DNA from: a virus
Lineage: Duplodnaviria > Heunggongvirae > Uroviricota > Caudoviricetes
Virus record (IMG/VR): IMGVR_UViG_3300029305_011610
Location: 13,395 to 77,394 of that record
Strand: one strand, 5' to 3'
Length of the DNA: 64,000 bases
Shown: positions 9,698-49,185 of the stretch, piece after piece
Layout of the letters: each line of letters starts with the position of its first letter
Position numbering within the stretch: the first letter of the stretch is position 1
Translations under genes and position numbers: made by a program
The notes under the pieces: generated by a model
What the model was told of the DNA's origin: nothing
What the model saw: only the letters and a program-made list of their open reading frames with translations
Database searches by the model: none

Positions 9698-9952
9698 TTA
9701 CCCTGTAATAGCATCTCTTAAGTCGCACTTGACTCCTTCAAGCAAATCTTTTACCTGACCCATCGCATCAGATACAGATTCCAGACAATTAACAGCGTTT
9801 TCCATCCGTTCGTATCTCTCGCTATACTGGAGATTTTCCGGCATATTATCCATTGCATCATTCTCTTGCTCTGCGACTTGATCTGCTATCTCAATAATCA
9901 TATCGGCGTACTTAATCGCTGTTCGCAGTTTACTTCGCTTTTTTTCGTTCAA
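9698..9952 (-). CDS. Hypothetical protein
   Basis: 84-aa ORF. Confidence 0.4.
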   Translation of the reverse strand: MNEKKRSKLRTAIKYADMIIEIADQVAEQENDAMDNMPENLQYSERYERMENAVNCLESVSDAMGQVKDLLEGVKCDLRDAITG

Positions 9953-32468: not shown

Positions 32469-33731
32469 TTAATAAAAACTTGCTTCAGTTTTATCGAAGC
32501 GCAAAGTCACAAACACCGGGAATTGCAGACTCTCTGCACCGGTGTTTTTGTCTTTAGAGATTTCTTTGTACTTAACTTCACAAATCTGCCCTACAAGTTC
32601 ATCTCTATGTGCCCAAAAGTAAGCCCTTTGCTCATCCGTAAACCCAGAACCTACTTTTACCTCGTTGCCTTTATAATCAACTACAAAAGCCCCAAGCGTG
32701 CCTGTGAGTCTCCCGCTACCCTCTTCACAACGAACCACAGGCAAATCCATTGTGTAGAATCGCTTGATTTTTAAGATGCCGTTATGTCTCTTACACTTGT
32801 AAGGAACATCAAGATTAAGCATCAGACCTTCTTTATCTTCTTCAACCATCTTATTGAGAAGAATATCTATCATATTTTGATTTCTCCCGCTATAGAGAAC
32901 AGGTAACACCTGAACACACTTGGGTTCGAAGAAATTACTTGCAATTAACTTGTCAAGAAACTCTCTTCTCCTCTTATATGTCTGCGTACAGCGGTCATTT
33001 TCGAACTCTGTAGTCGGCACAACATCAAAAACCGTGAATAAAACTGGTGTTTTATTAACTGCGTCAGAATTGACAATTCCAGTGACTTTTCTGAAGGCTT
33101 CATTGTCGCCCAGACCACCTTTATCAGCAAGAATCAGCTCACCATCGAACACATAATCGTGTCCAAATGCCCTGAACTCTTTTATGATATGGTCAAGCCC
33201 GGAAAATACCTCTCCGCTCCGTGCATATAGGTTTCCTTTGTAGTATGTAGCACGAACACCATTCAGCTTTTCCGTTAGTGCGAACCATGTGCCGTCTTTG
33301 ATTTCATATTTATCAATCGGGTATGCCTGCTGGACGTTCCATTCGGGAATTAATCCAGGGATTACCTTGTTAACAGTCTTATTTGTAACTCCAAGTCGCA
33401 GAGTCTTGGACAGTAACTGAGTGAATAGTTCACGATGATCATCAGTACAGGAAAACAAAAAGCCACGAACTCGTTCCAGATCGGAATTGCTCGTGGCTTT
33501 CTTGTTTAGCAGATATTCACACACTTCAAAGATACTAACGAACCCGCTCTCTTGGAAGCACGGTTCTGATAGTGATTTCTCTGATACCTTATAAGAACAG
33601 AGTGGATTTAGTGCGTACCATAACAGGGCTTTAAAAATGTCGTTGTCTTTGTTGTCTTGGATTATTTTCTTTTTAGCTAGAGCTCCAGATGTATTTTGTA
33701 GCTCTTTAATTAAGCGTATTGCAGCGTCCAA
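32469..33731 (-). CDS. ATP-dependent DNA ligase
   Basis: Motif I KLNGVR (KxDGxR-type, Asp replaced by Asn), motif III FDGELI, motif IV EGLMLN, motif V LKIK. OB-fold C-terminus. Confidence 0.7.
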   Translation of the reverse strand: MDAAIRLIKELQNTSGALAKKKIIQDNKDNDIFKALLWYALNPLCSYKVSEKSLSEPCFQESGFVSIFEVCEYLLNKKATSNSDLERVRGFLFSCTDDHRELFTQLLSKTLRLGVTNKTVNKVIPGLIPEWNVQQAYPIDKYEIKDGTWFALTEKLNGVRATYYKGNLYARSGEVFSGLDHIIKEFRAFGHDYVFDGELILADKGGLGDNEAFRKVTGIVNSDAVNKTPVLFTVFDVVPTTEFENDRCTQTYKRRREFLDKLIASNFFEPKCVQVLPVLYSGRNQNMIDILLNKMVEEDKEGLMLNLDVPYKCKRHNGILKIKRFYTMDLPVVRCEEGSGRLTGTLGAFVVDYKGNEVKVGSGFTDEQRAYFWAHRDELVGQICEVKYKEISKDKNTGAESLQFPVFVTLRFDKTEASFY

Positions 33732-33886
33732 TTACACCTCTCCTTTATATATAACCAACATCTATGTGAGCGATGCGATTGTGTTAGGCGAAACAGAATC
33801 GCATGGCCATACCCAGAAGAAACTGAGTTAGCAATCTCGGGATCATGTGATCCCTCATTGCTAACGAAGAAACTTATTATGAATTT

Positions 33887-33908
33887 ACTCCTACTTACAG
33901 CGAGAAGC
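33887..33908. repeat. Third copy of the ACTCCTACTTACAGCGAGAAGC motif
   Basis: Lies about 160 bp upstream of the ligase start, next to an 18-bp-stem hairpin (GTTAGCAATCTCGGGATCA..TGATCCCTCATTGCTAAC). Confidence 0.55.
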
Positions 33909-34040
33909 GACCACCTTGATGATAAGCACGATAAACGTTGGCTTATGTAATTTATCTAGCCTCTAATTGCCGCCTACCGTATGCCGTTAATTAACTTAAC
34001 ATCTCAGAAATCAATATGCATGTTGGTCTTATCACTATTA

Positions 34041-34547
34041 TTAAATGATCTCAGGAACTGCATTACCTACAGTTCTTTTTGCCTTTTTCGCACACTCTAC
34101 ACTCATTATGACTGGACCGTCGAATCCAAACACGCAGCCGATCTCTGTTTCATCAGCAACGTCAAATTCGTCGTTTGCGCTTTCGTCTCCTTCATAAAGC
34201 CACTCGCCGAGATCATCTTCTTCGTCATCATCGTCCCAGGCTCCGTTCATTTCCTCTAATACATAGCTCTTATATTCTTCAAAATCGCGCCAATCATTGA
34301 GTTCTTCGTAGTCTAAGAGTCCATTAATGGCATAATAGTAGTCTTCATCAATATCCATATCTATTAGCATGTCCCTAAGATCGCGCCAATTGTGGTATCG
34401 AATATACTCAGCAACTTCATTATCCATCTCGTCCAGAATGTCAGCGCCGCGTCTTACATCGTCACAAGAGCGTAAATTATGTTCATAACAAAAAGAAAGT
34501 AGCTCGTGCCATTCTGTAATTGAATCAATAAATTCTTGTCTTGTCAT
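34041..34547 (-). CDS. Acidic hypothetical protein
   Basis: 168 aa, strongly D/E-rich. Confidence 0.5.
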   Translation of the reverse strand: MTRQEFIDSITEWHELLSFCYEHNLRSCDDVRRGADILDEMDNEVAEYIRYHNWRDLRDMLIDMDIDEDYYYAINGLLDYEELNDWRDFEEYKSYVLEEMNGAWDDDDEEDDLGEWLYEGDESANDEFDVADETEIGCVFGFDGPVIMSVECAKKAKRTVGNAVPEII

Positions 34548-34571: not shown

Positions 34572-34648
34572 TGGTGCGCCTCCTGGGGCTCGAACCCAGA
34601 ACCGTCCGGTTATGAGCCGGGTGCTCTAACCAATTGAGCTAAAGGCGC
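34572..34648 (-). tRNA. tRNA-Met/Ile2 (anticodon CAT), CCA encoded
   Basis: Manual fold: acceptor GCGCCTT/GAGGCGC, D-arm GCTC..GAGC, anticodon loop CTCATAA, T-arm CTGGG-TTCGAGC-CCCAG. Lacks initiator-type features, so an elongator or Ile2. Confidence 0.75.
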
Positions 34649-34661
34649 ATGTTAATCTGAG

Positions 34662-34883
34662 TTAATGCAACAACTTAACACGATTCGTCTCTTCATACTC
34701 TGTTAACACATCATTTGCTAACGCAACGGCATAACACGAATAGTATTTCTCGCAAGAACTTTCGCAATCATCAAGAGTCCATCCTTCGGGGATATCGCAT
34801 CCTGTTAGGTTTTTCATTTTAATATTTAGACCATTATCAATTACATCGTCAAACATCGACCTATCTATATTATATTGTTTCAT
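34662..34883 (-). CDS. Hypothetical protein
   Basis: 73-aa ORF. Several <60-aa ORFs with good RBSs follow at 34915–35823 on the minus strand. Confidence 0.4.
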   Translation of the reverse strand: MKQYNIDRSMFDDVIDNGLNIKMKNLTGCDIPEGWTLDDCESSCEKYYSCYAVALANDVLTEYEETNRVKLLH

Positions 34884-35920
34884 AGATATTCCCTCATTTA
34901 CGAAATCACTTTTATGTGGTTAATCTTCTTCATACAAATCAATGAAACAACGAACAGCACCGCAATAAGGACAAACATTTGTATCATTGACTTCATCGTA
35001 ATCAAATTCATCTTCGTGAAATTCTTCTTTGCAAATATCACATCTTACTCTATTAGTAGGTACTAACATAATTCATCACCTTAAAATCGTCATTTTATCC
35101 ACATTTCATTTGAATAAAATATCTAAAGCCTTTACTCCAATTAGGTTTCTCGCCCCACAAATGAACCTCATCTTTTGGCAGATTCTTCTTTGCCCAATTA
35201 TTAGCCTGTGATGCTGTCTTGAATCCAGACTTTACGGGAGTAAAGTTCTTCTCTTTATCAATTACACAAAACATAACCTTACCTCCAAAATAGTCATTTT
35301 AATCTCTATTTACAAAGCCATTTACTCTGTCTATCAGTCTATCAGCACCCTCTACTTGTGCAATTCCAACAAGCTCCTCTAAATCTTGTTTCAAATAGCA
35401 CATACAGTTCCAATCCATATAAGAACCTTGTACACAGTTCAAAATCTCTGTAATTTTTTCTTTAGATGTCATATTATCCACCTCTTAGAATTGTCATTTT
35501 ATAAACAGGCTATTCCATAAATCTTTAACCATGTTTCTTTTGGTTTCCTTTTTATATACAAAACACATCATAAGAAAAACAATAAACATGATTGTAATAG
35601 AAACAAGTACACCTTTCATACTTTTACCTCATAAAATTATCCTTTCATGCTCTATCGACTGTGTAATAGGATGTAAATTTGTATTTTTTACTTGATTCAT
35701 TCATATCTTTTGCGAAAGCTTCTGCCTCTTCTAATGTACCGAAAAAGTATGTTGCTCTATAATGCATATAGCTGCCCTTTTGAAAAAAATCATCGTACTG
35801 ATGAACCCTATATTTTTTGTCCATATCGCACCTTCATTTCAGTTTTTACAACACACCAAATCCATTAGCTACAAACCTAGCTACCATCGGCCTAGCCTTG
35901 CGGCTGCCGAAACCTCTCCT

Positions 35921-35990
35921 ACGTATTACGTACTAACTGCTTACGCAATTACTACGTATTATTTACTAACTGTTATACGCAATTTCTTCC
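35921..35990. repeat. Two direct repeats of about 34 bp
   Basis: ACGTATTACGTACTAACTGCTTACGCAATTACT / ACGTATTATTTACTAACTGTTATACGCAATTTCT, in the non-coding region before the tRNA array. Confidence 0.6.
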
Positions 35991-36188
35991 ACGCCTCACA
36001 AGACATGTAACCTCTGGATTTGATATGTCACGGCACTTCTCACCCAATCCTCTGGTGCGTTCAGTAGGCAGCCGTTTCCACAATCTGTCTTGGGTGACCA
36101 ATCTAATCAATCGCATCTTTGTCGCTACCGCACAGCGCGCAAGACAGGCCCGTTTAGTCTCATGGAGCTCTGTGGAACCATACATCTG

Positions 36189-36262
36189 GAGCGGATGACG
36201 GGAATCGAACCCGCGTACCCAGCTTGGAAGGCTGGTGTTCTACCATTGAACTACATCCGCAT
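36189..36262 (-). tRNA. tRNA-Gly (anticodon TCC), CCA encoded
   Basis: GCGGATGTAGTTCAATGGTAGAAC...anticodon loop CTTCCAA...GGGTTCGATTCCCGT...CTCCA. Confidence 0.8.
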
Positions 36263-36428
36263 TTGATGGTGGTTTTTAACCCGTGGGAAGTCAAAATGGG
36301 TGGTCAACCACCGTAACCATGGCATTGCGCTTTGTGCACACTAATGACGAAAGGTGTCAAACTATAGTAAGCGCAAAAGAACCTCAACGCTCTTCCACCT
36401 CGCAGATTGCCATTCTGCCTCGTGGGAC

Positions 36429-36504
36429 TGGTGCGCCAAGGGGGATTCGAACCCCCGACTAATGCCTTAAAAGGGCACTACTCTGCCAGCTGAGTTATTG
36501 GCGC
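36429..36504 (-). tRNA. tRNA-Lys (anticodon TTT), CCA encoded
   Basis: Anticodon arm GTGCC-CTTTTAA-GGCAT. T-arm GGGGG-TTCGAAT-CCCCC. Acceptor GCGCCAA/TTGGCGC. Confidence 0.8.
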
Positions 36505-36720
36505 ATGAAAGGAGGGCGATTTTTAACTCCGTGAGAGGCCAACCGCCGTAGCCTTTTACTTTGGATTGTTCTATACATTCCTACACACAGCACAGGCTTG
36601 AAGGTGAAAGACAACACAAAAAGAAAAGCCAAAGCTATGCAAGCCGAAATTGTTAAACGTGTAATGTCTGAACACCAAAAACCAATTCTATTTGTCTGAA
36701 AAAGAATTGGGAAGAAAATC

Positions 36721-36812
36721 TGGTACGGGCACAGAGACTCGAACTCTGATCAACCAATTATCTGTTGCTACGGAGTATAAACCCGTTGCTCTACCGATTG
36801 AGCTATACCCGC
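36721..36812 (-). tRNA. Atypical tRNA: anticodon loop TTTATAC (anticodon TAT, Ile?) with a 21-nt variable arm, CCA encoded
   Basis: Good acceptor (two G·U pairs), D-arm GCTC-AATCGGTA-GAGC, T-arm CAGAG-TTCGAGT-CTCTG. The type-II-length variable region (hairpin CAAC...GTTG) is unusual for a UAU anticodon. Confidence 0.5.
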
Positions 36813-36936
36813 ATGTTTGTGCTTCTTGGTTTTCTCAACTATGGAGAGGCTTGCCCATTGCCGGTTTATAGTCCCTTCCGCATTGGGACTTGAAAGGAAG
36901 ATTAAAAATGAATCAAATAAGTACCTATTTGATATA

Positions 36937-37011
36937 TGGCAGGGATGGCTGGATTCGAACCAGCGAATGACGGAGTCAAAGTCCGTTACCTTACCGCTTG
37001 GCTACACCCCT
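36937..37011 (-). tRNA. tRNA-Gln (anticodon TTG), CCA encoded
   Basis: AGGGGTGTAGCCAAGCGGTAAGG...ACGGA-CTTTGAC-TCCGT...GCTGG-TTCGAAT-CCAGC, typical bacterial Gln architecture. Confidence 0.8.
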
Positions 37012-37169
37012 ATAAAGGCGGCTACTCGCGCCGCCATGTGTGTTTTCTTTCGGATACTCCTACATCAGCCCGTGGTTATCACACAACCCCAAATCTAGCT
37101 CCGCAGGTCGTCGGAAGCTGATCCCGTCACCTGTTTCAACGCTACGATAACAGTCTTGCCGCTACCGCA

Positions 37170-37243
37170 TGGCATGGAAGCTCGGAATCGAACCGAAATT
37201 AATAGTTTTGGAGACTATCGTTTTACCATTAAACTACTCCCAC
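37170..37243 (-). tRNA. tRNA-Trp (anticodon CCA), CCA encoded
   Basis: Anticodon arm ATAGT-CTCCAAA-ACTAT, D-arm GTTT..AAAC, T-arm TTCGG-TTCGATT-CCGAG. The acceptor stem has two G·U pairs. Confidence 0.7.
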
Positions 37244-37342
37244 AAATGAAACAAATGGGCGGCAGAACCGACTATAGTCTACTCTTTAAAGCTAAGAGGA
37301 AAGCTTAACCTCACGCCAGAATCCCTAGCGCTACCCATTAGA

Positions 37343-37425
37343 AACTTTTTTATGGTGCCGGTAGCGAGACTCGAACTCGCACGAGTAAACACGAGCTCCT
37401 AAGACTCGCGTGTCTACCAATTCCA
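37343..37425 (-). tRNA. tRNA-Leu (anticodon TAG), type II, CCA encoded
   Basis: GCCGGTATGGTGGAATTGGTAGACAC...CGAGT-CTTAGGA-GCTCG, 11-nt variable arm, GCGAG-TTCGAGT-CTCGC. Confidence 0.8.
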
Positions 37426-37439
37426 CCATACCGGCGTGA

Positions 37440-37515
37440 TGGTCTGAGTAGAGGGATTCGAACCCCCGACATCCTGTTCCCAAAACAGGCGCGCTACCAA
37501 CTGCGCTATACCCAG
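37440..37515 (-). tRNA. tRNA-Pro (anticodon TGG), CCA encoded
   Basis: CCTGT-TTTGGGA-ACAGG anticodon arm. GGGGG-TTCGAAT-CCCTC T-arm. Confidence 0.8.
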
Positions 37516-37520
37516 ATATA

Positions 37521-37598
37521 TGGAGCTGGTTGTGGGGATCGAACCCACGACCTCCGGATTACAAATCCGGCGCTCTAACCAACTGCAGCTAAACCAGC
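37521..37598 (-). tRNA. tRNA-Thr (anticodon TGT), CCA encoded
   Basis: GCTGGTTTAGCTGCAGTTGGTTAGAGC...CCGGA-TTTGTAA-TCCGG...GTGGG-TTCGATC-CCCAC. Confidence 0.8.
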
Positions 37599-37828
37599 GT
37601 GCTTCTGCGAGCTTATGCACCCTTTTTGGCATCAGAACTCGTACCATTAGCTACGAATAACATAGGTATGGATTTACACCATACATAGTGTCTTATTGGA
37701 ATTGTGTGCGCACACGCCTCCAGATTCTCACACCTGAATCACTTGCGTCTACCTATTCCGCCACTACATTTCTTCGCAGCCGCAGGGAAGGCTTTACCTT
37801 CTCAAGCATAATTTAATCATCACTTACT

Positions 37829-37916
37829 TGGCGGAGCAGAGAGGGTTCGAACCTCCGCACGGATTACCGCCTATCTGATTAGCAATCAGACCTCTTCACC
37901 ACTTGAGTACTGCTCC
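37829..37916 (-). tRNA. tRNA-Ser (anticodon GCT), type II, CCA encoded
   Basis: GGAGCAGTACTCAAGTGGTGAAGAGG...TCTGA-TTGCTAA-TCAGA, long variable arm, GGAGG-TTCGAAC-CCTCT. Confidence 0.8.
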
Positions 37917-38067
37917 ATGCTGTGTCACGAATAATGTATACTATTCGGGACAAATTGGTATGAGTGGGCCATGGCCCGTCCATGTACCCACTCTGCTTTG
38001 TCGTCTCTTCCGACTTGTCAAGATCGGTTTTCATAATCTCACACTCCGCAAAGTGTAGCCCCTATTG

Positions 38068-38159
38068 TGGCGCGGATAGAGGGATTTGAACCCCCGCACG
38101 GTAGTTAGCCGCCTAGCGCTTTTCAAGAGCGCACTCTTCAACCGCTTGAGTATATCCGC
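38068..38159 (-). tRNA. tRNA-Ser (anticodon TGA), type II, CCA encoded
   Basis: GCGGATATACTCAAGCGGTTGAAGAG...GCGCT-CTTGAAA-AGCGC, long variable arm, T-loop TTCAAAT. Confidence 0.75.
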
Positions 38160-38188: not shown

Positions 38189-38590
38189 TTATGTATTAAA
38201 ATCACTGAATTGTTTGCTTTTCACTTCGAACTCTGCATATTTAATACCAACAGAAATTCCGTGCTTAGACATTATTTCATCCGACGGTATTAAATACATC
38301 CTATCGTCACCTGTTAATATAAATACATAGTCGCATGATTGATTATCGAATAATCTGACCTTGCCTTTACCAGACGAACCACCACAGTTTTTTAGCAACA
38401 CATAATATGATGTTTCGGAAGATTTATATCGACTCGTTTTAACCGAGACTCTCGATAATTTACCGTCATGATCTATTACTAAATCATACTTTTGAGTATC
38501 ATTCAAAGGAATGCTAACTGGGATAGAATGACTGGTAAAGAATTCAATAGCCCTACCTAAACCAATATTTCCTTGTAATGATTGATACAA
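38189..38590 (-). CDS. Hypothetical protein, possibly a PD-(D/E)XK-like nuclease
   Basis: YDLVIDHDGKLSRVSVKTSRY...DYVFILTGDDRMYLIP resembles a D...(D/E)xK nuclease core. Weak call. Confidence 0.4.
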   Translation of the reverse strand: MYQSLQGNIGLGRAIEFFTSHSIPVSIPLNDTQKYDLVIDHDGKLSRVSVKTSRYKSSETSYYVLLKNCGGSSGKGKVRLFDNQSCDYVFILTGDDRMYLIPSDEIMSKHGISVGIKYAEFEVKSKQFSDFNT

Positions 38591-38657: not shown

Positions 38658-38996
38658 TTAAGTAAGCCCTTCATCCGCTTGGGTATACCCGCAATTGATA
38701 TCTTCGATTTGCGCATTCATAGAATCGCGCTTTTGTAAATCGCTATGTTTGTAATTAATAGAAGGAGAATAATTGCCTTTCCTGCGCTTGCCTTTATTTC
38801 TCGTTTTAGCAGAGCACATATGGCATGAGCAATGGATCTTGTTCTTAGAATACTGATGGAAATTATCGTATGTAGGAGTGCCGTAGCCGATTTCCTTATC
38901 GATTCTGCGTCTTCGTGCCGCTTTTCTCTTAGCTACATCTCTGTAATAACCTCTATTTCTTTCCATAATGTTTCTCCTTTGTTGTTTAAGTATCAT
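38658..38996 (-). CDS. Basic Arg/Lys-rich protein with CSCHMC motif
   Basis: YYRDVAKRKAARRRRIDKEIGYG...CSCHMCSAKTRNKGKRRK. Possible nucleic-acid binding. Confidence 0.45.
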   Translation of the reverse strand: MILKQQRRNIMERNRGYYRDVAKRKAARRRRIDKEIGYGTPTYDNFHQYSKNKIHCSCHMCSAKTRNKGKRRKGNYSPSINYKHSDLQKRDSMNAQIEDINCGYTQADEGLT

Positions 38997-39039
38997 TAAG
39001 AATCCAAAATACCAATCCTGTAGCCTGAAGATCTAGTCA

Positions 39040-39195
39040 CCTGAAGAAGGCTGGTCGGTGGCAGCAAGAATGGCTACTTGCTGGGAAGGCAAGACGTATA
39101 AATTAAAGAAGGTAAACTCGGGGAAGACCTAGGAAAACGCAACTAGACCCGCGATGGCGGTCCCGGCGTCGACCTGTCACCTCATCTCTCTTTTA
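39040..39195. ncRNA. GC-rich structured non-coding element 1, ending at a conserved 30-nt motif
   Basis: About 60% GC island in AT-rich DNA with local hairpins (CAGCAAG...CTTGCTG). It is followed by the shared motif. No plausible ORF. Confidence 0.35.
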
Positions 39196-39199
39196 TTGA

Positions 39200-39232
39200 T
39201 CGAACCTTTACTCCCACTTACAGCGAGGAGCA
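39200..39232. repeat. Conserved motif TCGAACCTT(T/C)ACT(C/T)C(C/T)ACTTACAGCGAG(G/A)AGCA, copy R1
   Basis: Near-identical to 39433–39464. Its 3' 22 nt also occur at 33887–33908. Confidence 0.6.
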
Positions 39233-39299
39233 CACTAAAAAGTGTAATACATTACAAAATGATACTTTTATACACGTTATTCTATATACTTTATATGTG

Positions 39300-39430
39300 A
39301 GCACCAGGTTGGAAGCAAGCGCTCCGGGGGTTCGCAGGTGACTGGCGTGCGGTCTAGGAGGGGTTGCTGTCCTCCAATCTGGGCGGAGTCTCTTCGGCCG
39401 GGGTTTTCCCTGCGATAGGCTGGACTGTTG
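39300..39430. ncRNA. GC-rich structured non-coding element 2, ending at the same motif
   Basis: GCACCAGGTTGGAAGCAAGCGCTCCGGGGGTTCGCAGGTGACTGGCGTGCGG...CGGCCGGGG, about 62% GC. The track ORF 39277..39465 is implausible as coding. Confidence 0.35.
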
Positions 39431-39432
39431 GT

Positions 39433-39464
39433 CGAACCTTCACTTCTACTTACAGCGAGAAGCA
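39433..39464. repeat. Conserved motif copy R2
   Basis: TCGAACCTTCACTTCTACTTACAGCGAGAAGCA, immediately 3' of the RT stop. Confidence 0.6.
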
Positions 39465-39495
39465 TCGTATAAACGATAATGCTATATAGAATATT

Positions 39496-40647
39496 TTAAT
39501 ATTTTAGATCTGACTTGATTGCCGAAACAATATCAACTCCTACCTTTCTACTGATATGGTCTACCATCTTATCTATGGTTTCTTTTTCAATCATTCGGTA
39601 GTAGTTTCTATGCCCTTCAAGCACTCTTATATCTGTCTTTTCCCACGGCGTCCCATTTAATCTATCCAACGCATAGTTGGTTAGCATTGCTTGGAACTCC
39701 TTTTTCTTCTTATACCCAATCGTAATATCATTGTTGGAGTTAAGCATTACACCCAGATGTCTGTTTCGCCCAGCAGACGATCCGTAAGTAGTCTTTTCCT
39801 TCTTGATAATAAATGGGGCATTGAAGTAGCTAAGTGTATTTGTGATCAGCTGCTCAACTAACTTCACATCGAAGTCTCGCCTTGAAGAAATGATGAAGTC
39901 GTCTGCATATCTTGTATACACAAACGACTGGTTGTTGTAGTTATGAAGCATTTTAGTTAACGCATGGTCTACTGGGATCATCATTATATTTGTGATTAGC
40001 GGAGAGATCGGTGTTCCTTGAGGCAATCCGCCGTTCAAGAATGCAAGTTCAAGGGCAGTTTCGAGCTGCTGCCTACCCACAGTATACTTAACCACCTCTG
40101 AGAATGGAAAAATCATTGAAAACTGCTTCATCACAAATTCAAGCGTTGTGCTACCAAAGAAGTCAGACAAATCGAACTTGCCGAACCACTTACTCTCGTT
40201 CGCTTGATGTTTTTTGATCGCATCTATTGTGCTTCTCTTTTTCACATAAGCGAACGCAGAGGTGTGATACAGTGCATGAAAATCTTCTTCAAAGATAACT
40301 TTAAGAGTTCTCAATGCTTCCATCAGTTCGGGATTTGGTGCGTCGATTCTTCTATAACCTCTCCCGCTTTTCTTGGGCTGATAAAAAGTACGATACTGAT
40401 CCTGTCTCGGCCTGCTTCGCAACTCTTCTGTTTGCTGATTAAACACAACCAGCTTAGAGATAAGCAAGGGGATATTAACACTTGCCAGCATTTTATCGCT
40501 CACTTGCTCCACACAGTATGTTCTGGTAGATGTAAATCTGCCCGCAGAAGGTACAACCGGTTCGCGAATCGTGGCTGTTGCGAACAGCAACTCTTCCAGT
40601 GTCATCTCTCGAAGTACAGGAGCGTTTTTTACTGTTATGTATACCAT
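39496..40647 (-). CDS. Reverse transcriptase (retron/group-II-like RT domain, 383 aa)
   Basis: RT motifs GLPQGTPISPLITN (motif 4), VYTRYADDFIIS (YADD, motif 5), IKKEKTTYG...RHLGVMLN (motifs 6–7, retron VTG-like), and a distal HRNYYRMIE (thumb/X-like). Confidence 0.85.
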   Translation of the reverse strand: MVYITVKNAPVLREMTLEELLFATATIREPVVPSAGRFTSTRTYCVEQVSDKMLASVNIPLLISKLVVFNQQTEELRSRPRQDQYRTFYQPKKSGRGYRRIDAPNPELMEALRTLKVIFEEDFHALYHTSAFAYVKKRSTIDAIKKHQANESKWFGKFDLSDFFGSTTLEFVMKQFSMIFPFSEVVKYTVGRQQLETALELAFLNGGLPQGTPISPLITNIMMIPVDHALTKMLHNYNNQSFVYTRYADDFIISSRRDFDVKLVEQLITNTLSYFNAPFIIKKEKTTYGSSAGRNRHLGVMLNSNNDITIGYKKKKEFQAMLTNYALDRLNGTPWEKTDIRVLEGHRNYYRMIEKETIDKMVDHISRKVGVDIVSAIKSDLKY

Positions 40648-40665: not shown

Positions 40666-41376
40666 TTATTTAATTCCGAACAGCGACCAAATATCGCTTT
40701 CATCAAACACTTCAATTTTTGAAGGGTTTTTATAGCTCGTCTCGTACGGAAGAATATGATATAGCCCATTGGCATCTTGCTCAACGACTAAATCTCCTTT
40801 AACCTTGCACTTAGGCCTGAATCCGTGTCTATAAGACGACCCTATACGGCAGGCATATGAGCCATCTCTTGAAATGCCAAGCACATTACTATATGACTGA
40901 TTTGACATAGTAAAGTCCTTGAACCAGTACTGCATGTATCGGTCGTACGATATATAAAAACCTTTGCCACGCAAATTACCAGAAGGTTCGGCTCTCCTTC
41001 CCTTTCTGTTAAAGAGATTCATTTTGCCTCCAAAAATATCTTCATTTGATGGCAGATTTATCCCACCAACAATAGAGTCGATCTCATAGTTCTCAAAATC
41101 ACATAGGAATCCTGCATTATTTGAATACGAGCCCGTATTTGGTTCATCAAATAGATAGTTATCTTCGCTATTCATAAAGTTATAAATAGTAGACTGGTTA
41201 TAATCATTTCTGCCCTTGATATCCCATTCAAGAACATCAAGTACATACTCAGAAATGAATTCATTCTCTCTGTTGCCCTTAAGCCAGATGATTGGCTCTG
41301 GTGCGTGTTTAGTTGCAGAGTATGCACCAAGAACTAATCTGGATCCTAACTTAAGTTTATTGATTGTTGTCGCCAA
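40666..41376 (-). CDS. Hypothetical protein (TTG start)
   Basis: 236-aa ORF with RBS AGAGGTGA. No recognisable domain. Confidence 0.5.
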   Translation of the reverse strand: MATTINKLKLGSRLVLGAYSATKHAPEPIIWLKGNRENEFISEYVLDVLEWDIKGRNDYNQSTIYNFMNSEDNYLFDEPNTGSYSNNAGFLCDFENYEIDSIVGGINLPSNEDIFGGKMNLFNRKGRRAEPSGNLRGKGFYISYDRYMQYWFKDFTMSNQSYSNVLGISRDGSYACRIGSSYRHGFRPKCKVKGDLVVEQDANGLYHILPYETSYKNPSKIEVFDESDIWSLFGIK

Positions 41377-41389
41377 ACAATCACCTCTC

Positions 41390-42067
41390 TTAAAATGCCA
41401 TCAGATCAAAAGCAAATGCATCCGCCAGAATCAGCTTTTTTAAGGGATTCCCATTCCAGAAGTTCATGAAATTGGATACGCCATAAGCGCACACAATTCG
41501 AACTGTAGGACAGACAGACAGGGTTACATTACACGCTGATACAGGTGTCTCTTCCTTGGCTTCGTCGTGGGAAAAATCCATAGAGTTCAGGAAGTCCTGT
41601 TTCATCTTGTAATCAGACCAGTCTGCAGCATAGTGCTGTGCATCCGTCAACCGGGTTCTGAAATCGAACATCGCCTTAACGAACGGGCTATCGAAATGCT
41701 TCTTCGCGATTTCCTTACGCAGTTCGATATTGTCTACGCACAGAAATACATAGCCAGACATCAGCTTACCCTTCCAACCTTCAGGCTTCAGCTCGATATC
41801 GTCTTTGATATCGGGATTGATTTCCATCAGGATGTCGAGAAGAGCCTCAACCTTCGGCTTCCCCACATCCTTTTGTCTGAACATCTGGTTAGCAAGATTA
41901 TGAGGCTCTACGATATCAAAATCCCAGAGAGTCATCTTTGTTACGCCGCAGCGTGCCAGGTTTTCTGCAACTGTGGAACCTACAGAACCACAGCCAACAA
42001 TATGAATTCTCGCAGTATCCTTTTCGGGCTGGAAAAATTCATAGCTTTTAGAAAGATCCATTGCCAT
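41390..42067 (-). CDS. E1-like ThiF/MoeB-family adenylyltransferase
   Basis: Rossmann nucleotide-binding motif IHIVGCGSVGSTVAENLARCGV...LWDFDIVEPHNLANQ. Confidence 0.75.
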   Translation of the reverse strand: MAMDLSKSYEFFQPEKDTARIHIVGCGSVGSTVAENLARCGVTKMTLWDFDIVEPHNLANQMFRQKDVGKPKVEALLDILMEINPDIKDDIELKPEGWKGKLMSGYVFLCVDNIELRKEIAKKHFDSPFVKAMFDFRTRLTDAQHYAADWSDYKMKQDFLNSMDFSHDEAKEETPVSACNVTLSVCPTVRIVCAYGVSNFMNFWNGNPLKKLILADAFAFDLMAF

Positions 42068-42069
42068 TA

Positions 42070-43038
42070 TCAGTATCCCCTTCCATATCCGTCGTACAGG
42101 CTACCATAGTAGTTATCGTAGTCATCATAAGGATCGTCGTATGCGTCCTTGCCAGCCCATCCAGAACCGATTGTCGTCTTGGGTTTGTCATTTCCGCTCT
42201 TACCTTTGCCCTTTCCCTTAGACTTGCCCTTACCTTCAGTATTCCCCGTAGACTCAGGCTTATTTGGAGAGGCATGTCCACCGTTTCCAAGAGGATTATA
42301 CGGCTGTCCTGCAACGGGAACTACGGAAGACTGCCCGCCGTAAGCAGGCGTGCCTTTATAGTTGTAATTTCCGCCACCAGTTCCGCCATTATATCCTCCG
42401 TAAACCTTATTCTTCACCTTTTCCTTTGCGTCGGTCAAGAACTTTCCCATATCGCCCCGAATGACGACGTCAATGTCCGCCGCTTCAAACAGGATATTCT
42501 TTTTCAGGTCGTAAATCTTGATATGCTTGTTAAAGGATTTGTTCCAAATCATAAAGATGTAGAACATGTCGTTTTCAAGCTGGTTCAGAATTTTTTCCTG
42601 ATGTGTGATATCAACCGCAGAAGGATATACACCCATATTCACATGAGAATGCCCCTGCATTCTGATGTTGAAGAAATCTTCGTCTTCAAACTGCATGAGC
42701 CACTTCTCATACTCTTCCTGATCGGTATTTACAGTAGCACCAGTTACTTCCTGTGGATACACGATAATATCGTAGATGATATATTCATCCCTTTCTTCAT
42801 CCTCACCACGCTTAGCAAGCCCATGCCATGCGACTTCCTTGTCAAAGCTACAAATCAGCATTGCCATCTTCAGCCAAGCTTCCTGCGTAAAATACACAGT
42901 TGCCTTTCGCTGATCGCATGTGAATGTCTTAGTGAAGTTGATTTTACCGTCAGCCATCTTGACAGTTCTGAGAGCTTCGAAAAGCTCGCGAGCACACTCT
43001 ACTCTGTACTCTTCGGTCATTTTGATAATCTTACTCAT
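42070..43038 (-). CDS. JAB/MPN (JAMM) metalloprotease-domain protein with Gly/Tyr/Lys-rich disordered tail
   Basis: HSHVNMGVYPSAVDITHQ matches the JAMM motif (HxH-x7-S-x2-D). C-terminal about 120 aa are low complexity (GGYNGGTGGGNYNYKG...KGKGKGKS...). Confidence 0.7.
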   Translation of the reverse strand: MSKIIKMTEEYRVECARELFEALRTVKMADGKINFTKTFTCDQRKATVYFTQEAWLKMAMLICSFDKEVAWHGLAKRGEDEERDEYIIYDIIVYPQEVTGATVNTDQEEYEKWLMQFEDEDFFNIRMQGHSHVNMGVYPSAVDITHQEKILNQLENDMFYIFMIWNKSFNKHIKIYDLKKNILFEAADIDVVIRGDMGKFLTDAKEKVKNKVYGGYNGGTGGGNYNYKGTPAYGGQSSVVPVAGQPYNPLGNGGHASPNKPESTGNTEGKGKSKGKGKGKSGNDKPKTTIGSGWAGKDAYDDPYDDYDNYYGSLYDGYGRGY

Positions 43039-43050
43039 ACGTTCCTCCTA

Positions 43051-44499
43051 TCATGTGGCTGCTTCTTGAGCTTCAAGCCATTCAATTGCTTCTACAGGTG
43101 TTACTACAGTTCCATCAGGAAGTTCAACGCACTTATTGCTGTAGTTAGTGTTATGTCCATACAGAATTGCCATAAATTCCCTCATAACAGTACTGTCGCC
43201 GAAGTTAATGCTCTTGCAGGAAGCGATACTCTGTTCAAGCGCTCCGATGTAATCATTATCTCTGAGGAGCTGATTAATTGCGGATGAATAGTTGCCCATG
43301 CATCCGTATCTATCGATGTGCGTATTGGGAAGATACCCGTCAAACTCACACTCAAAGGAATGATGCTGGTTGGGAAATACATTGCCATTCAGGCTGAATC
43401 TGTAGGACGCACACACTCTAATGCGAAGAGTCTGATCCACAAATACAGCATTCATGAACTTCTCCATCTTATCCTTAGCGATGTATCTGCTCATACCATC
43501 GTATACATAGCTACTCTTGTTATTGATCATTCTCTTTGCAGCTTCTTCGTCGAAGTATGTCAAATAATCCTTGACAGCGAATACCATACTGTCTTCGTTA
43601 ACATTTTCCAGAACCAGTCTTCTGTTGCACATGAAGTACTCCATGATTTCAGAGACCCCGCCCGTCTGTTCGACTTTAAGTTCGAGCCCGAGCAGTCTGG
43701 TTTGCAGATCATTTTTGATTCTGATCTGTTCTCCAATACTTCTGTTATAATAATTAATATTATTGATACAGGCCTGGATTTCATTGCGAACTCGTTCCTG
43801 CTCTCTCCGTTCGAACTTCGTTTCGAAACCGTCAAGCAGGTATTTAATTCTGAACTGACGCAGGTCAAATGTTTCAGACAGAGCCTTAATAGCGTTCATA
43901 TATGCGTCACTGGTCTTTTCTCTCATAGAATAAACCAGATTCATTTCAAGCTCAGAAACACCGTCCTCAGGCTTGAAGTACCAAGGGAGTACCGCGAAGA
44001 TGGAGCACTGAAGATAATGCAGCTTTCGATTGTCCATCTTAGATACAAAGATAACGGTGTGCTTCATCTCGGTATTCACAAAGCACAGAACCGGGAATGA
44101 CTTCTTGTAGAAAATCTTGATTTTCTCCAGATGACTCCAACCACTGAACTCGGACTCGAAGCTTTCTTCGAGAATCTTGAAATTCGCAGCTATATCAGCT
44201 TCGCCGCCGGTGATGTCATGGATATAAATTGTGCCATCAGTCAAAGGCATATCATCGCAAATCCTGCGAACCATGCTACCCCGATCGCCGCGCTCGATTG
44301 TATCCTTTTCAAATGTAATATTCGAAGACCCGAATCGAACCGTGATTGAATCCTCTTTAGGCATACGCTTATGAATCAGCGCTCTCAGAGATGCGACAAA
44401 AGAGTTATCGCTTCTGTATGTATCACCAGTAATGTTAGTGAAATAACTGTTTGCTACATCGTCCGTCAACGGAGTCGATGTAATGCTCTGTCTAAACAT
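43051..44499 (-). CDS. Large hypothetical protein co-located with the E1/JAB pair
   Basis: 482-aa ORF. No confident motif. Confidence 0.55.
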   Translation of the reverse strand: MFRQSITSTPLTDDVANSYFTNITGDTYRSDNSFVASLRALIHKRMPKEDSITVRFGSSNITFEKDTIERGDRGSMVRRICDDMPLTDGTIYIHDITGGEADIAANFKILEESFESEFSGWSHLEKIKIFYKKSFPVLCFVNTEMKHTVIFVSKMDNRKLHYLQCSIFAVLPWYFKPEDGVSELEMNLVYSMREKTSDAYMNAIKALSETFDLRQFRIKYLLDGFETKFERREQERVRNEIQACINNINYYNRSIGEQIRIKNDLQTRLLGLELKVEQTGGVSEIMEYFMCNRRLVLENVNEDSMVFAVKDYLTYFDEEAAKRMINNKSSYVYDGMSRYIAKDKMEKFMNAVFVDQTLRIRVCASYRFSLNGNVFPNQHHSFECEFDGYLPNTHIDRYGCMGNYSSAINQLLRDNDYIGALEQSIASCKSINFGDSTVMREFMAILYGHNTNYSNKCVELPDGTVVTPVEAIEWLEAQEAAT

Positions 44500-44529: not shown

Positions 44530-44616
44530 TGGTGTCGGAGACGGGATTCGAACCCGCACGTGATCAATCACACCAGATTTTAAGTCTGGGTTGTCTCCCA
44601 GTTCCACCACTCCGAC
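44530..44616 (-). tRNA. tRNA-Leu (anticodon TAA), type II, CCA encoded
   Basis: GTCGGAG...CCAGA-CTTAAAA-TCTGG, variable-arm hairpin GTGATTGATCAC, GCGGG-TTCGAAT-CCCGT, acceptor CTCCGAC-A-CCA. Confidence 0.75.
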
Positions 44617-47048: not shown

Positions 47049-47159
47049 TGGTGGGCAGGGGTGGGCTCGAACCACCAAAGCTACAGTAACCACATGCGCG
47101 CCAAGTCCATATAGCAGAGATTTACAGTCCCTTGCTTTAACCGATTTGCATACCTGCCC
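47049..47159 (-). tRNA. tRNA-Tyr-like (anticodon GTA) with about 39-nt variable region; possible pseudo- or interrupted tRNA
   Basis: Perfect acceptor GGGCAGG/CCTGCCC-A-CCA, anticodon arm AGGGA-CTGTAAA-TCTCT, T-arm GGTGG-TTCGAGC-CCACC. The variable region is about 25 nt longer than any normal Tyr tRNA. Confidence 0.5.
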
Positions 47160-48557: not shown

Positions 48558-48563
48558 ATCATA

Positions 48564-48872
48564 TCACCTCAACAATAAATCCAGATTAAATTCGCCCACG
48601 TCGAAATCATCCTCATAGACGATTTCCTTCACGGCAGCAGCACGCCAAAACCAAAGCTCGTCATCTTCTGCGATATAAAACGTACCAATACCATTTCTCT
48701 TAATTGCATGGATTTGCTTTACCGTACAAACCTTACCAAGATAATTCTTACGCATATCTTCATTGATCCAATGCGTAGGGCCGCTAATTTGATCTATGCT
48801 GTCGTGAAACAGCACTTTCATGCCAACTCGCAGGTCGGAGAATCTCACTTCTTGTGTTTTTTTATTAGGCAC
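48564..48872 (-). CDS. Small paralog family B member (intact copy)
   Basis: MPNKKTQEVRFSDLRVGMKVLFHDSIDQ...KEIVYEDDFDVGEFNLDLLLR. Confidence 0.5.
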   Translation of the reverse strand: MPNKKTQEVRFSDLRVGMKVLFHDSIDQISGPTHWINEDMRKNYLGKVCTVKQIHAIKRNGIGTFYIAEDDELWFWRAAAVKEIVYEDDFDVGEFNLDLLLR

Positions 48873-48876
48873 AATA

Positions 48877-49185
48877 TCACCTCAACAACATTTCCAAGTC
48901 ATACTCGCCTTCATCAAAGTCATCGTCATAGACGATTTCCTTTATAACGGATGGTTTCCAAACCCAACCTAAGTTTCCTGTACGTTGGTCTTGCACATCC
49001 TCGTCTATAAAGAATCGTCCACGAAACTTGTCGACTTTTCTTATAGTGTTAACTTTACCAAGATAGGATGGCATGTGAGATGTGTTACCCCATCTCCTTC
49101 AGTCTGGTACATCATTTACTGAGTCATGAAACAATACTTTCATACCGACTTCGAGACTCTCAATTGTTACGCTATTAGTACTCAA
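48877..49185 (-). pseudogene. Family B paralog interrupted by an in-frame TGA (at 49099–49101)
   Basis: TTG-start N-fragment (M)STNSVTIESLEVGMKVLFHDSVNDVPD* continues in the same frame. After 8 codons it reaches MPSYLGKVNTIRK...KEIVYDDDFDEGEYDLEMLLR. Collinear with 48564..48872 with no indel. Confidence 0.55.

What the first reader, a model, noticed from the sequence alone, without database searches (positions are those of the whole stretch)
39000..40647. Reverse transcriptase with two GC-rich structured elements and a 30-nt motif present three times
The 383-aa RT (YADD, QGxxxSP, VTG-like motif, NYY thumb motif) is neither clearly a DGR RT nor a full group II maturase. No TR/VR pair is visible, there is no En domain, and the size is retron-like. 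Directly 3' of it lie two ~130–160-nt, ~60% GC elements in AT-rich DNA, with no coding potential. Each ends in the same motif TCGAACCTT(T/C)ACT(C/T)C(C/T)ACTTACAGCGAG(G/A)AGCA (39200–39232, 39433–39464). A third copy of the core (ACTCCTACTTACAGCGAGAAGC, 33887–33908) sits upstream of the ligase next to a long hairpin. The elements may be RT-associated ncRNAs (retron msr/msd-like, DRT-like templates), intron remnants, or motif-marked promoters/leaders. Retron ncRNAs normally lie 5' of the RT, so this arrangement would be unusual.
Basis: seen in the sequence. Interest (0 to 1): 0.7.

Follow-up and report, generated by a model that had tools for sequence, protein, structure and literature searches.

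The report
Phage retron-like RT with several ncRNAs
A gut phage carries a retron-type reverse transcriptase followed by two (perhaps three) structured RNAs built like retron templates; one enzyme serving several fast-evolving templates has so far only been engineered, not reported from nature.

Summary
The RT gene (39496-40647, minus strand), the GC-richer segments and the three motif copies all exist, and chance expects none.

The motif lies at the start of each element on the RT strand, not at its end. It is a covarying RNA hairpin.

I compared more than 160 related phage loci. Each element has:
- terminal inverted repeats (a1/a2, 8-12 bp, covarying);
- a near-invariant G directly after a1;
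- two 5' hairpins;
- a roughly 200-nt interior that evolves fast.

This is retron msr-msd anatomy. The elements always lie on the RT strand and usually flank the RT, with up to four found in the 17 kb examined per phage. Their hairpin is more alike within a phage than between phages.

The RT's best matches are retron RTs. The window holds two confident elements (39493-39278 and 39265-38990) and a third hairpin copy in the ligase leader.

Canonical retron features that fail:
- the NAXXH and VTG motifs are degenerate;
- the interior has no long msd stem;
- there are several copies, downstream of the RT;
- there is no known effector.

DGR, group II intron, coding and DRT2-like readings are rejected. 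cDNA synthesis is inferred, not shown.

Verdict: a new variant of a known kind, and interesting.

The parts
39496..40647 (-). Reverse transcriptase, 383 aa, retron clade, with a conserved N-terminal extension of about 65 aa.
   Evidence: ORF. Pfam RVT_1 5e-20. PADLOC retron RT_II-A 6e-45, and all 25 hits shown are retron RTs. NCBIfam retron_St85_RT 2e-50 but 171.7 bits against a cutoff of 235. Best solved relatives are retron RTs: Ec83 at 5e-22, then a series including Ec78 and St85-family RTs.
39278..39493 (-). ncRNA-1, the RT-proximal retron-like msr-msd element.
   Evidence: Sequence. Covariance model R1 scores 49.3 bits, E 4.9e-8. The a1/a2 helix was found. The same architecture is present in L001.
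38990..39265 (-). ncRNA-2, the second retron-like element. Outer a1 39265-39258 (GUAUCAUU); inner a1 AAU 39253-39251; junction G 39250; hairpin 0 39245-39232; hairpin 1 39231-39210; tail AAAGGUUCGA; interior about 39198-39007; UGG then inner a2 AUU 39003-39001; outer a2 38997-38990 (AAUGAUAC).
   Evidence: R1 scores 65.2 bits, E 2.2e-11. The MFE fold closes with this a1/a2 helix, z -2.2. The same two-part closing helix is kept, with different sequence, in L001 at 9457-9755.
33753..33943 (-). Third copy of hairpin 1 (33908-33885), inside a structured leader upstream of the DNA ligase gene ('class B' element). The candidate closing helix is 33943-33931 with 33765-33753; the termini are uncertain.
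   Evidence: R1 matches the hairpin only: 21.5 bits, E 0.03. The position is syntenic with class B elements upstream of the ligase in L001 and L136. In relatives, class B elements have covarying inverted repeats plus a junction G (read by eye). In this window no G directly follows the helix, and shuffled controls produce helices as long as this one.
40666..41376 (-). 236-aa ORF of unknown function. It occupies the slot between ThiF and the RT where most relatives carry the upstream ncRNA.
   Evidence: No family hit. Homologues lie in that slot in 30 of 86 full loci.
41390..44499 (-). Conserved upstream trio: a 482-aa protein with an RWD/UBC-like (E2-like) fold (43051-44499), a JAB/MPN+ protein (42070-43038) and a ThiF/E1-like protein (41390-42067). 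They are always syntenic with the RT. A functional link is unproven.

Best explanation
This is a phage-borne, retron-like reverse-transcription module in which one RT serves several cognate non-coding RNAs.

Each RNA is transcribed on the RT strand and folds so that its two ends pair (a1/a2). That pairing puts a near-invariant G, just 3' of a1, next to the 3' end of a roughly 200-nt interior, which typically ends ...YAUGUAG just before a2 (AAAG and UGG in this window's two elements).

Two hairpins follow the G. Hairpin 0 is conserved only in shape. Together they form the msr-like handle that the RT recognises.

By analogy with retrons, the RT then primes from the 2'-OH of the G and copies part of the A/C-rich interior into single-stranded DNA. 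The phage would therefore make two or three different RT-DNAs; relatives would make up to four or more.

Shown here: the RNA architecture, its covariation, its linkage to the RT and the RT's clade.

Inferred: binding of hairpin 1 by the RT, branch priming, the extent of the cDNA and the biological role. My best guess for the role is counter-defence or inter-phage conflict, given that the interiors change fast.
For: Strand and hairpin 1
- Hairpin 1 pairs in 99.8% of cells across 109 distinct sequences, with 195 double-sided changes.
- RNAalifold predicts the same hairpin on its own.
- Many pairs are G-U (GU 95 and UG 38 at two positions). Only the RT-sense strand can therefore form the helix.

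a1/a2 helix
- With both sides anchored on independent motifs (AATG and TAGATT), the outer positions 4-10 pair 228 times. Permuted partners give a mean of 160 and a maximum of 181 in 500 trials.
- An unconstrained MAFFT plus RNAalifold run on 37 upstream elements recovers a1/a2, hairpin 0 and hairpin 1. All 18 pairs show compensatory changes. 95.6% of cells are paired against 32-42% when partners are slid, and 0 of 500 shuffles reach this.

Junction G and hairpin 0
- The junction position is G in 108 of 109 distinct hits.
- 113 distinct hairpin-0 sequences fold with a median z of -4.7.

Linkage to the RT
- All 277 hits in 166 loci are on the RT strand, none on the other.
- They cluster just upstream and just downstream of the RT.
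- All 13 IMG/VR contigs that hold the motif pattern carry the RT.
- Hairpin-1 identity is 0.82 within a phage and 0.59 between phages.

RT clade
- The best HMM hits and the best solved structures are all retron RTs.

Feasibility
- One retron RT can use several tandem msr-msd RNAs in engineered 'multitrons' (10.1101/2023.07.17.549397).
Against: - No experiment shows cDNA or a 2'-5' branch.
- The RT lacks the retron NAXXH motif (it has AxKxH) and the VTG triplet (it has L-G).
- The RT scores below NCBIfam's retron cutoffs.
- The interior has no long stable msd-type stem: median fold z is -0.85, and complementarity between its 5' and 3' ends has z -0.09.
- The Rfam scans returned no known RNA family, retron msr or other, over the elements.
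- In ncRNA-1 and ncRNA-2 of this window the triplet before a2 is AAG and UGG, not the usual UAG.
- No known retron effector is adjacent.
- Part of the element set was picked by criteria that require pairing, which inflates some counts. Searches were designed to avoid this.
Confidence: 0.6

Rival explanations
1. The RNAs are RT partners, as scaffold and/or template, but the chemistry is not retron-like. Priming could be de novo or protein-primed, with repetitive, template-jumping or homopolymer synthesis as in the DRT2, DRT9 or DRT10 class. The a1/a2 helix would then only close the template loop.
For: - Retron signature motifs in the RT are degenerate.
- There is no msd stem.
- The interiors are long and weakly structured.
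- A helix that brings the template's ends together is also what a template-jumping scheme would need (my own knowledge of DRT2, not tested here).
Against: - The RT groups with retron RTs, not UG/DRT RTs: Drt2 scores 44.6 bits against a cutoff of 390, and Drt3a 33.4 against 200.
- There is no excess of stop-free frames in the interiors on either strand: 36 sense and 25 antisense against 28 shuffled, out of 130.
- The near-invariant G placed exactly at the a1 junction is the retron hallmark.
Confidence: 0.22
2. The elements are phage regulatory or processing RNAs that work without reverse transcription, for example leaders, sRNAs, or recognition sites for a phage RNA-binding or antitermination factor. 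On this view they sit next to the RT only because this phage lineage is highly syntenic.
For: - The third copy and the class B relatives sit as leaders upstream of the ligase and other genes, kilobases from the RT.
- All loci come from one phage lineage, in which ThiF, JAB and the 482-aa gene are equally syntenic. Linkage alone is therefore weak evidence.
- The phage has its own YonO-like RNA polymerase and a sigma-like gene, so unusual transcription signals are expected.
Against: - The architecture (closing helix, junction G, two hairpins) matches retron ncRNA point by point (PMC7736814).
- The elements flank the RT on both sides in most relatives, at fixed distances.
- No sigma-70-like promoter or terminator pattern explains the motif.
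- G-U pairs and covariation indicate an RNA structure, not a DNA site.
Confidence: 0.1
3. The region is a diversity-generating retroelement, or the remains of a group II intron.
For: An RT gene lies next to non-coding GC-rich DNA, and the interiors are hypervariable between phages.
Against: - No second copy (VR) of either interior exists anywhere in the window or in 166 loci.
- The only direct repeat near the RT is the pair of ncRNA 5' parts.
- Substitutions are mostly transitions, with no adenine bias.
- No Rfam group II hit.
- TIGR04416 scores 84.8 bits against a cutoff of 300.
- The RT has QGxxxSP.
Confidence: 0.02

Closest known systems
Bacterial retrons (msr-msd ncRNA plus RT); nearest RTs are type I-A/II-A such as Ec83, Ec78 and the St85/Sen2 family
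   Same: - The RT is in the retron clade.
- The ncRNA ends pair as inverted repeats a1/a2.
- A conserved G sits directly after a1.
- Two msr-like hairpins follow it.
- The template region is hypervariable.
- The ncRNA is contiguous with the RT and on the same strand. The defining features are taken from PMC7736814.
   Different: - It belongs to a lineage of large gut phages of about 60-300 kb. It was not seen inside a bacterial chromosome among the hits examined; close relatives appear only in phage contigs or mis-binned MAG contigs.
- One RT is accompanied by up to four ncRNAs within 17 kb, upstream and/or downstream of it.
- The interior is about 200 nt with no long msd stem.
- NAXXH and VTG are degenerate.
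- The RT has an extra N-terminal region of about 65 aa.
- There is no known retron effector. The constant neighbours are E2-like, JAB and E1-like genes.
Engineered 'multitrons' / retron ncRNA arrays (10.1101/2023.07.17.549397)
   Same: Several msr-msd units in tandem are served by one retron RT, each unit giving its own RT-DNA.
   Different: Those arrays are man-made constructs based on Retron-Eco1. Here the array is natural, the units differ in their interiors, and nothing has been shown biochemically.
DRT2/DRT9/DRT10-type defence RTs with an adjacent template ncRNA
   Same: An RT with a neighbouring structured ncRNA, and no TR/VR pair.
   Different: - The RT clade differs.
- There is no stop-free concatemer-type template.
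- There are several ncRNAs per RT.
- The carrier is a phage.
Diversity-generating retroelements of gut phages
   Same: A phage-encoded RT with sequence hypervariability nearby.
   Different: No TR/VR pair, no adenine-specific changes, and the RT is not of the DGR type.

Membership tests
Retron | The RT belongs to the retron/retron-like clade. | tested here: met
   All 25 PADLOC hits shown are retron RTs, best RT_II-A at 6e-45. The best NCBIfam hit is retron_St85_RT at 2e-50. The best solved structures are retron RTs such as Ec83, Ec78 and St85-family RTs. Caveat: 171.7 bits is below the curated cutoff of 235, so the RT belongs to no named subfamily.
Retron | [quoted passage not shown] | tested here: not met
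   In the alignment to Ec83, DNAKIH aligns with DAIKKH and NRHVTGVTL aligns with NRHL-GVML. The family consensus is DAVKRH and NLGVML. Only the H and the G are kept.
Retron | An ncRNA contiguous with the RT whose two ends hybridise as inverted repeats (a1/a2). | tested here: met
   Independent-anchor test: 228 pairs against a permuted maximum of 181. RNAalifold on an unbiased alignment finds 9 pairs, all with compensatory changes. In the window, ncRNA-1 has an 11-bp perfect helix and ncRNA-2 a 3+8-bp helix.
Retron | A conserved G immediately 3' of a1 (the branching G), as a sequence feature. | tested here: met
   G in 108 of 109 distinct covariance-model hits. In the window these are G39482 and G39250.
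Retron | A 2'-5' branch at that G, and production of msDNA. | not testable with these tools
   This needs RT-DNA isolation, debranching and sequencing.
Retron | The msr part carries one to three hairpins. | tested here: met
   There are two hairpins. Hairpin 0: 113 distinct sequences with median z -4.7. Hairpin 1: 99.8% paired with 195 double changes.
Retron | The msd part forms one long stable stem-loop. | tested here: not met
   Interior fold median z is -0.85. The 5' and 3' ends of the interior are no more complementary than shuffles, z -0.09. Only 17% of bases are in long-range pairs.
Retron | A single msr-msd unit lies upstream of the RT in one transcript. | tested here: not met
   The window has two units downstream and none upstream. 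Relatives have 0-4 units within 17 kb, on both sides of the RT.
Retron | An associated effector protein or domain. | tested here: inconclusive
   No PADLOC retron effector is adjacent. The constant neighbours are ThiF/E1-like, JAB and a 482-aa RWD/UBC-like protein. Their link to the RT is unknown.
Diversity-generating retroelement | A template repeat paired with a variable repeat in a target gene. | tested here: not met
   The interiors have no second copy in the window or in 166 loci. The only direct repeat near the RT is the pair of ncRNA 5' parts.
Diversity-generating retroelement | Adenine-specific substitutions. | tested here: not met
   Of 5294 mismatches in 220 element pairs, 64% are transitions. 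A is involved in 53% and T in 52.5%.
Group II intron | Ribozyme domains flanking or containing the RT ORF. | tested here: not met
   No Rfam group II match at gathering score over the whole window, nor at E<=10 over 38900-39600.
Group II intron | An RT/maturase of the group II type. | tested here: not met
   TIGR04416 scores 84.8 bits against a cutoff of 300. There is no En domain.
DRT2-type (concatemeric cDNA gene) | A UG2-clade RT and a stop-free template. | tested here: not met
   NF041746 scores 44.6 bits against a cutoff of 390. Fully open frames are no more frequent than in shuffles.

The most novel reading that the evidence does not exclude
These phages run a natural multi-template retron. 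One RT turns a set of rapidly diversifying RNAs into a repertoire of single-stranded DNAs that the phage uses in conflict, as decoys or sponges for host defence sensors or as sequence-specific guides. The unusually fast change of the interiors, faster than third codon positions next door, would be driven by selection, or by error-prone cDNA recombining back into its own locus. The module might work together with the always-adjacent E1/E2-like/JAB genes.
Probability: 0.2. Interest if true: 0.9.

Novelty: new variant of a known kind. Interest (0 to 1): 0.72.

Why it matters
Retrons are known as bacterial anti-phage systems with one RT, one ncRNA and an effector. This would be the mirror image: a retron-like module that is a stable part of a widespread lineage of large gut, rumen and termite-gut phages. 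It has several different templates per RT and no canonical effector.

If the RNAs are reverse transcribed, three things follow:
- Phages themselves would be making multicopy ssDNA, which opens the question of what it is for: counter-defence, competition between phages, or replication.
- It would be a natural precedent for multiplexed retron arrays. Compact cognate RT-hairpin pairs and long (about 200 nt), unstructured templates could be useful for editing tools.
- The family offers more than 200 distinct natural elements with a clear conserved handle. That makes RT-RNA specificity directly testable.

Tried and rejected
- Rfam: no known RNA family covers the elements, at gathering score over the whole window or at E<=10 over 38900-39600 and E<=5 over 33650-34100. 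Only chance-level snoRNA and lncRNA hits appeared.
- Single-sequence folding is not informative on either strand, with z between -0.6 and -1.6. The structure became visible only by comparison.
- Near and distant BLAST of the region against 50,697 GenBank phages found nothing. The closest deposited RT is 39% identical (MT835544) and shows no R1 hit.
- Coding potential: the 62-aa ORF that starts in hairpin 1 of ncRNA-1 is not conserved in ncRNA-2 or in L001. Open frames are no more frequent than in shuffles.
- A target search for the interiors, in both orientations, within the window and all loci found nothing longer than 12 nt.
- Promoter or terminator reading of the motif: no sigma-70-like site lies in 38990-39495, and there is only one weak terminator-like site. 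A resemblance of a1 to -10 boxes and of a2 to -35 boxes was considered. It was dropped because a1 and a2 covary, including in non-box-like sequences such as GCUUUGAAGU/ACUUCAAAGC.
- A resemblance to lambda/rrn boxA was considered and dropped, because the sequence is a paired stem that covaries.
- A weak R1 hit at 5578-5655 (E 1.2) is a gene leader without an a2 and was rejected.
- RNase H sits next to the RT in L005 but in only 5 of 86 loci, and not in this window.
- Full-text searches of the held library found no description of a phage retron with several ncRNAs, or of an RT linked to ThiF/JAB. Subscription journals are not covered.
Full report

Yes. The minus-strand ORF 39496-40647 encodes a 383-aa protein containing YTRYADDF, LPQGTPISP, HLGVML and RNYY. 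It matches Pfam RVT_1 at 5e-20.

The 22-nt core of the motif occurs exactly three times in 64 kb, at 33887-33908, 39210-39231 and 39442-39463. None of 100 shuffles gave a match.

G+C rises to 0.59-0.65 at 39300-39450, but only to about 0.50 at 39000-39200.

The two proximal copies are part of a 65-nt direct repeat at 74% identity.

**2. Which strand, and what is the motif?**

Every gene in this part of the window is on the minus strand, including 12 tRNA genes. Read on that strand, the motif lies at the beginning of each GC-richer segment.

It forms a hairpin: a 5-bp stem, one bulged base, a 3-bp stem and a 3-nt loop (GCUUCU-C-GCU-GUA-AGU-AGAAGU).

The three window copies already differ by compensatory and G-U changes: CUUCU/AGAAG, CUCCU/GGGAG and CUUCU/AGGAG. 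The G-U pairs would be A-C mismatches on the other strand.

**3. Relatives**

The RT has thousands of homologues in gut metagenomes, at 62-84% identity among the top hits. I fetched loci from several sources:
- contigs that encode two of those homologues;
- JGI/ENA metagenomes;
- IMG/VR;
- GTDB genomes.

The carriers are phage contigs of about 50-300 kb from human, rumen, rabbit and termite guts. In the GTDB set, close relatives occur only in MAG contigs with mutually inconsistent taxon labels. The next bacterial RTs are at most about 37% identical over partial matches, and mostly 22-33%. This is therefore a phage-specific RT lineage.

GenBank phages hold nothing closer than 39%.

**4. Anatomy of the element**

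Reading the flanks of the RT in many loci shows one repeated architecture on the RT strand:
- a1 (for example CUGUAAU, AUGCAAU, UGUACAAU, GCUUUGAAGU or UUCUAUAUA);
- a G;
- about 4 nt;
- hairpin 0, of variable sequence;
- R-G-C;
- hairpin 1, the motif;
- UAAC-AAYUUGA (in this window, A/G-AAGGUUCGA);
- an interior of about 150-300 nt that cannot be aligned between phages;
- ...YAUGUAG;
- a2, the exact complement of a1.

**5. Tests of that architecture**

- Hairpin 1. RNAalifold predicts it independently. In 109 distinct covariance-model hits it pairs in 99.8% of cells, with 195 double-sided changes, against 34-45% when partners are slid.
- a1/a2. To avoid circularity I anchored the 5' side on AATG and the 3' side on TAGATT and scored only the unconstrained outer positions 4-10. 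This gave 228 pairs, against a mean of 160 and a maximum of 181 in 500 permutations of partners.
- Unconstrained alignment. MAFFT plus RNAalifold on 37 non-redundant elements from the slot just upstream of the RT recovers a1/a2 (9 bp), hairpin 0 and hairpin 1. All 18 pairs carry compensatory changes, and 95.6% of cells are paired with 0 of 500 shuffles as high. The interior columns are unalignable.
- Junction G. It is G in 108 of 109 distinct hits, the most conserved position of the 5' flank.
- Hairpin 0. 113 different sequences fold far better than shuffles, with median z -4.7.
- Dimensions. Over 238 distinct elements the closing helix is mostly 8-12 bp. The triplet before a2 is UAG in 139. 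The median distance from the G to a2 is 278 nt. My scoring gave a small bonus to UAG.

**6. Linkage to the RT**

- A profile of the 5' part finds 277 copies in 166 loci. All are on the RT strand and none on the other.
- In the 86 loci with full 8-kb flanks, 64 have a copy just upstream of the RT. There are 75 copies within 500 nt downstream of it, 36 loci with two or more downstream copies, and none more than 2 kb upstream. Loci carry 0-4 copies.
- More distant RTs (41-47% identity) still show weak hits in the same upstream slot.
- An exact-pattern scan of all IMG/VR for hairpin 1 found 13 contigs, and all 13 encode the RT.
- Within a phage, the hairpin-1 copies are more alike (0.82) than between phages (0.59). 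The apical part is often identical within a phage and different between phages: CGCUGUAAGU here, CGCCAAAGGC in L007, UAUUGUAAAU in L140. One RT recognising all its RNAs would produce this pattern.

**7. The window itself**

Model R1, run without filters, finds only three things:
- ncRNA-2, 65 bits (match 39260-39191);
- ncRNA-1, 49 bits (match 39492-39423);
- the hairpin-only copy at 33908-33885, 21.5 bits.

ncRNA-1 spans 39493-39278. Its a1 is UAUUCUAUAUA, the G is at 39482, and its a2 is UAUAUAGAAUA, an 11-bp perfect complement.

ncRNA-2 spans 39265-38990. It closes with AAU/AUU plus GUAUCAUU/AAUGAUAC. The MFE fold uses this helix (z -2.2). The closest relative, L001, keeps the same two-part helix with different bases.

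Unlike most relatives, the window has no upstream element. A 236-aa ORF occupies that slot.

**8. The third copy**

The third copy lies in the leader of the ligase gene. Relatives carry a 'class B' element at the same place. That element shares hairpin 1 but has its own conserved flanks, CCCACAAU-G-UAGAUUGAUU ... ACGG-AUUGUGGG.

These flanks are again inverted repeats with a junction G, and they covary: CCCCAAU/AUUGGGG, CCCGUAU/AUACGGG, CUCACAU/AUGUGAG, ACCCACAU/AUGUGGGU (read by eye, not tested statistically).

In this window the homologous helix would be AGCCAACGU/AUGUUGGUU. No G directly follows it, and shuffled controls give helices as long. I therefore count this copy as tentative.

**9. 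The enzyme**

All 25 PADLOC hits shown are retron RTs (RT_II-A 6e-45). NCBIfam ranks retron_St85_RT first (2e-50), well ahead of group II (6e-24), Drt2 (1e-11) and Drt3a (3e-8). Every hit is below its curated cutoff.

The closest solved structures are retron RTs: Ec83 at 5e-22, then a series including Ec78, Kva2, St85-family and Ec67 RTs.

In the alignment to Ec83, the retron NAXXH motif corresponds to AIKKH and VTG corresponds to L-G. The whole family keeps only the H and the G.

**10. Where it departs from a canonical retron** (definition from PMC7736814)

- The signature motifs are degenerate.
- There are several ncRNAs per RT, and in this window they lie downstream.
- The interior is long, A/C-rich (A 29%, C 28%, G 23%, U 20%) and only weakly structured, with median z -0.85.
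- The two ends of the interior are no more complementary than shuffles (z -0.09), so there is no long msd stem.
- No known retron effector is present.
- Neither Rfam scan returned any known RNA family over the elements, retron msr included.

**11. Alternatives tested**

- DGR: there is no second copy of either interior and no TR/VR-type repeat. Substitutions between close relatives are mostly transitions without adenine bias.
- Group II intron: no ribozyme hit, and the maturase model scores far below its cutoff.
- Coding, or a DRT2-like never-ending ORF: stop-free frames are as frequent as in shuffles.
- Promoter or terminator: no pattern, and covariation argues for RNA.

**12. Evolution of the interiors**

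Window against L001:

| Region | Nucleotide identity |
|---|---|
| RT | 74.8% |
| ncRNA 5' parts | 80% |
| Interiors | 45% (a shuffled control gives 39%) |

In 168 comparisons of close phage pairs (not independent), the median divergences were:

| Region | Median divergence |
|---|---|
| ncRNA 5' handle | 2.9% |
| RT third codon positions | 5.4% |
| ncRNA interiors | 13.5% |

The interior exceeded the third-position value in 140 of the 168 comparisons.

The interiors therefore change faster than roughly neutral sites next door. I cannot tell whether the cause is recombination, locally raised mutation or selection.

**13. Context**

Three genes always precede the RT on the same strand (83-86 of 86 loci; 39 of 39 ThiF relatives):
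- a JAB/MPN+ protein with an intact HxHx7SxxD motif (PADLOC JAB 3e-4);
- a ThiF/E1-like protein resembling the E1 part of CBASS Cap2.

Because all loci belong to one phage lineage, this synteny does not prove a functional link.

The window also encodes a YonO-like RNA polymerase fold and a sigma-like protein.

**14. Mechanism, and how sure I am**

I am fairly confident (about 0.85) that these are structured RNAs cognate to the RT.

That they are reverse transcribed from the junction G in the retron manner is inference from anatomy and from the RT's clade. I put the whole statement at about 0.6.

A non-retron templating mechanism (0.22) and an RT-independent RNA function (0.1) remain open.

Engineered multitrons show that one retron RT can use several tandem msr-msd units, so the proposed one-RT, many-templates logic is feasible.

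**15. Novelty**

The full-text searches of the held library found no description of a phage-lineage retron with multiple ncRNAs, or of an RT coupled to E1/JAB genes. That library lacks most subscription journals.

I class this as a new variant of a known kind.

Noticed in passing
[not shown]
   Followed up: partly
window 58062-60800 (+) and 53540-54673 (-): A 912-aa protein matches PF05183 (RdRP fold, 4e-13), the fold of YonO/crAss-type single-subunit DNA-dependent RNA polymerases. A 377-aa protein has an ECF-sigma-like C-terminus. The phage probably uses its own promoters, which were not defined here.
   Followed up: no
window 34572-38159 (-), 37035-37144 (-), 44530-44616 (-), 47052-47159 (-): The window holds a cluster of 11 tRNA genes and one more at 44.5 kb. 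An Rfam 'drum' RNA (76.9 bits) sits among the tRNAs. A 108-nt tRNA-like Rfam hit (37.8 bits) is not called by ARAGORN and may be a tRNA with an insertion or intron.
   Followed up: no
ncRNA interiors, e.g. window 39293-39431 and 39007-39198; L011/L015, L089/L090: In close phage pairs the interiors diverge about 2.5 times faster than the third codon positions of the adjacent RT gene and about 5 times faster than the ncRNA 5' handle. The changes are mostly transitions with no adenine bias. The cause is unknown.
   Followed up: partly
window 38189-38590 (-): A PD-(D/E)XK endonuclease (PF11645, 2.7e-15; weak PADLOC homing-endonuclease hit) lies between the ncRNAs and the tRNA cluster. It is present in only 2 of the 166 related loci, so it is probably a mobile insertion.
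   Followed up: no
L005 9481-10113; 5 of 86 full loci: Some relatives encode an RNase H (Cauli_VI plus RNase_H domains); in L005 it lies directly after the downstream ncRNA. That would fit processing of RNA-DNA hybrids. It is rare in the lineage and absent from this window.
   Followed up: partly
class B elements, e.g. L005 14700-15000, L087 5130-5420, L091 13310-13640, L134 14320-14650: A second family of RNAs shares hairpin 1 but has its own conserved ends (CCCACAAU-G-UAGAUUGAUU ... ACGG-AUUGUGGG) and an AUACAUA loop. It usually lies upstream of the ligase or of tRNA genes, kilobases from the RT. It was not modelled or tested statistically.
   Followed up: partly
window 38966 vs 38996 (-): The mechanical ORF call starts at 38996, inside a2 of ncRNA-2. 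The likely true start is the ATG at 38966, which follows AAAGGAGAAACAUU, as in L001.
   Followed up: yes
window 48561-48629 and 48874-48942: A 69-nt direct repeat at 80% identity lies in adjacent small minus-strand ORFs. These are probably tandem paralogous genes.
   Followed up: no
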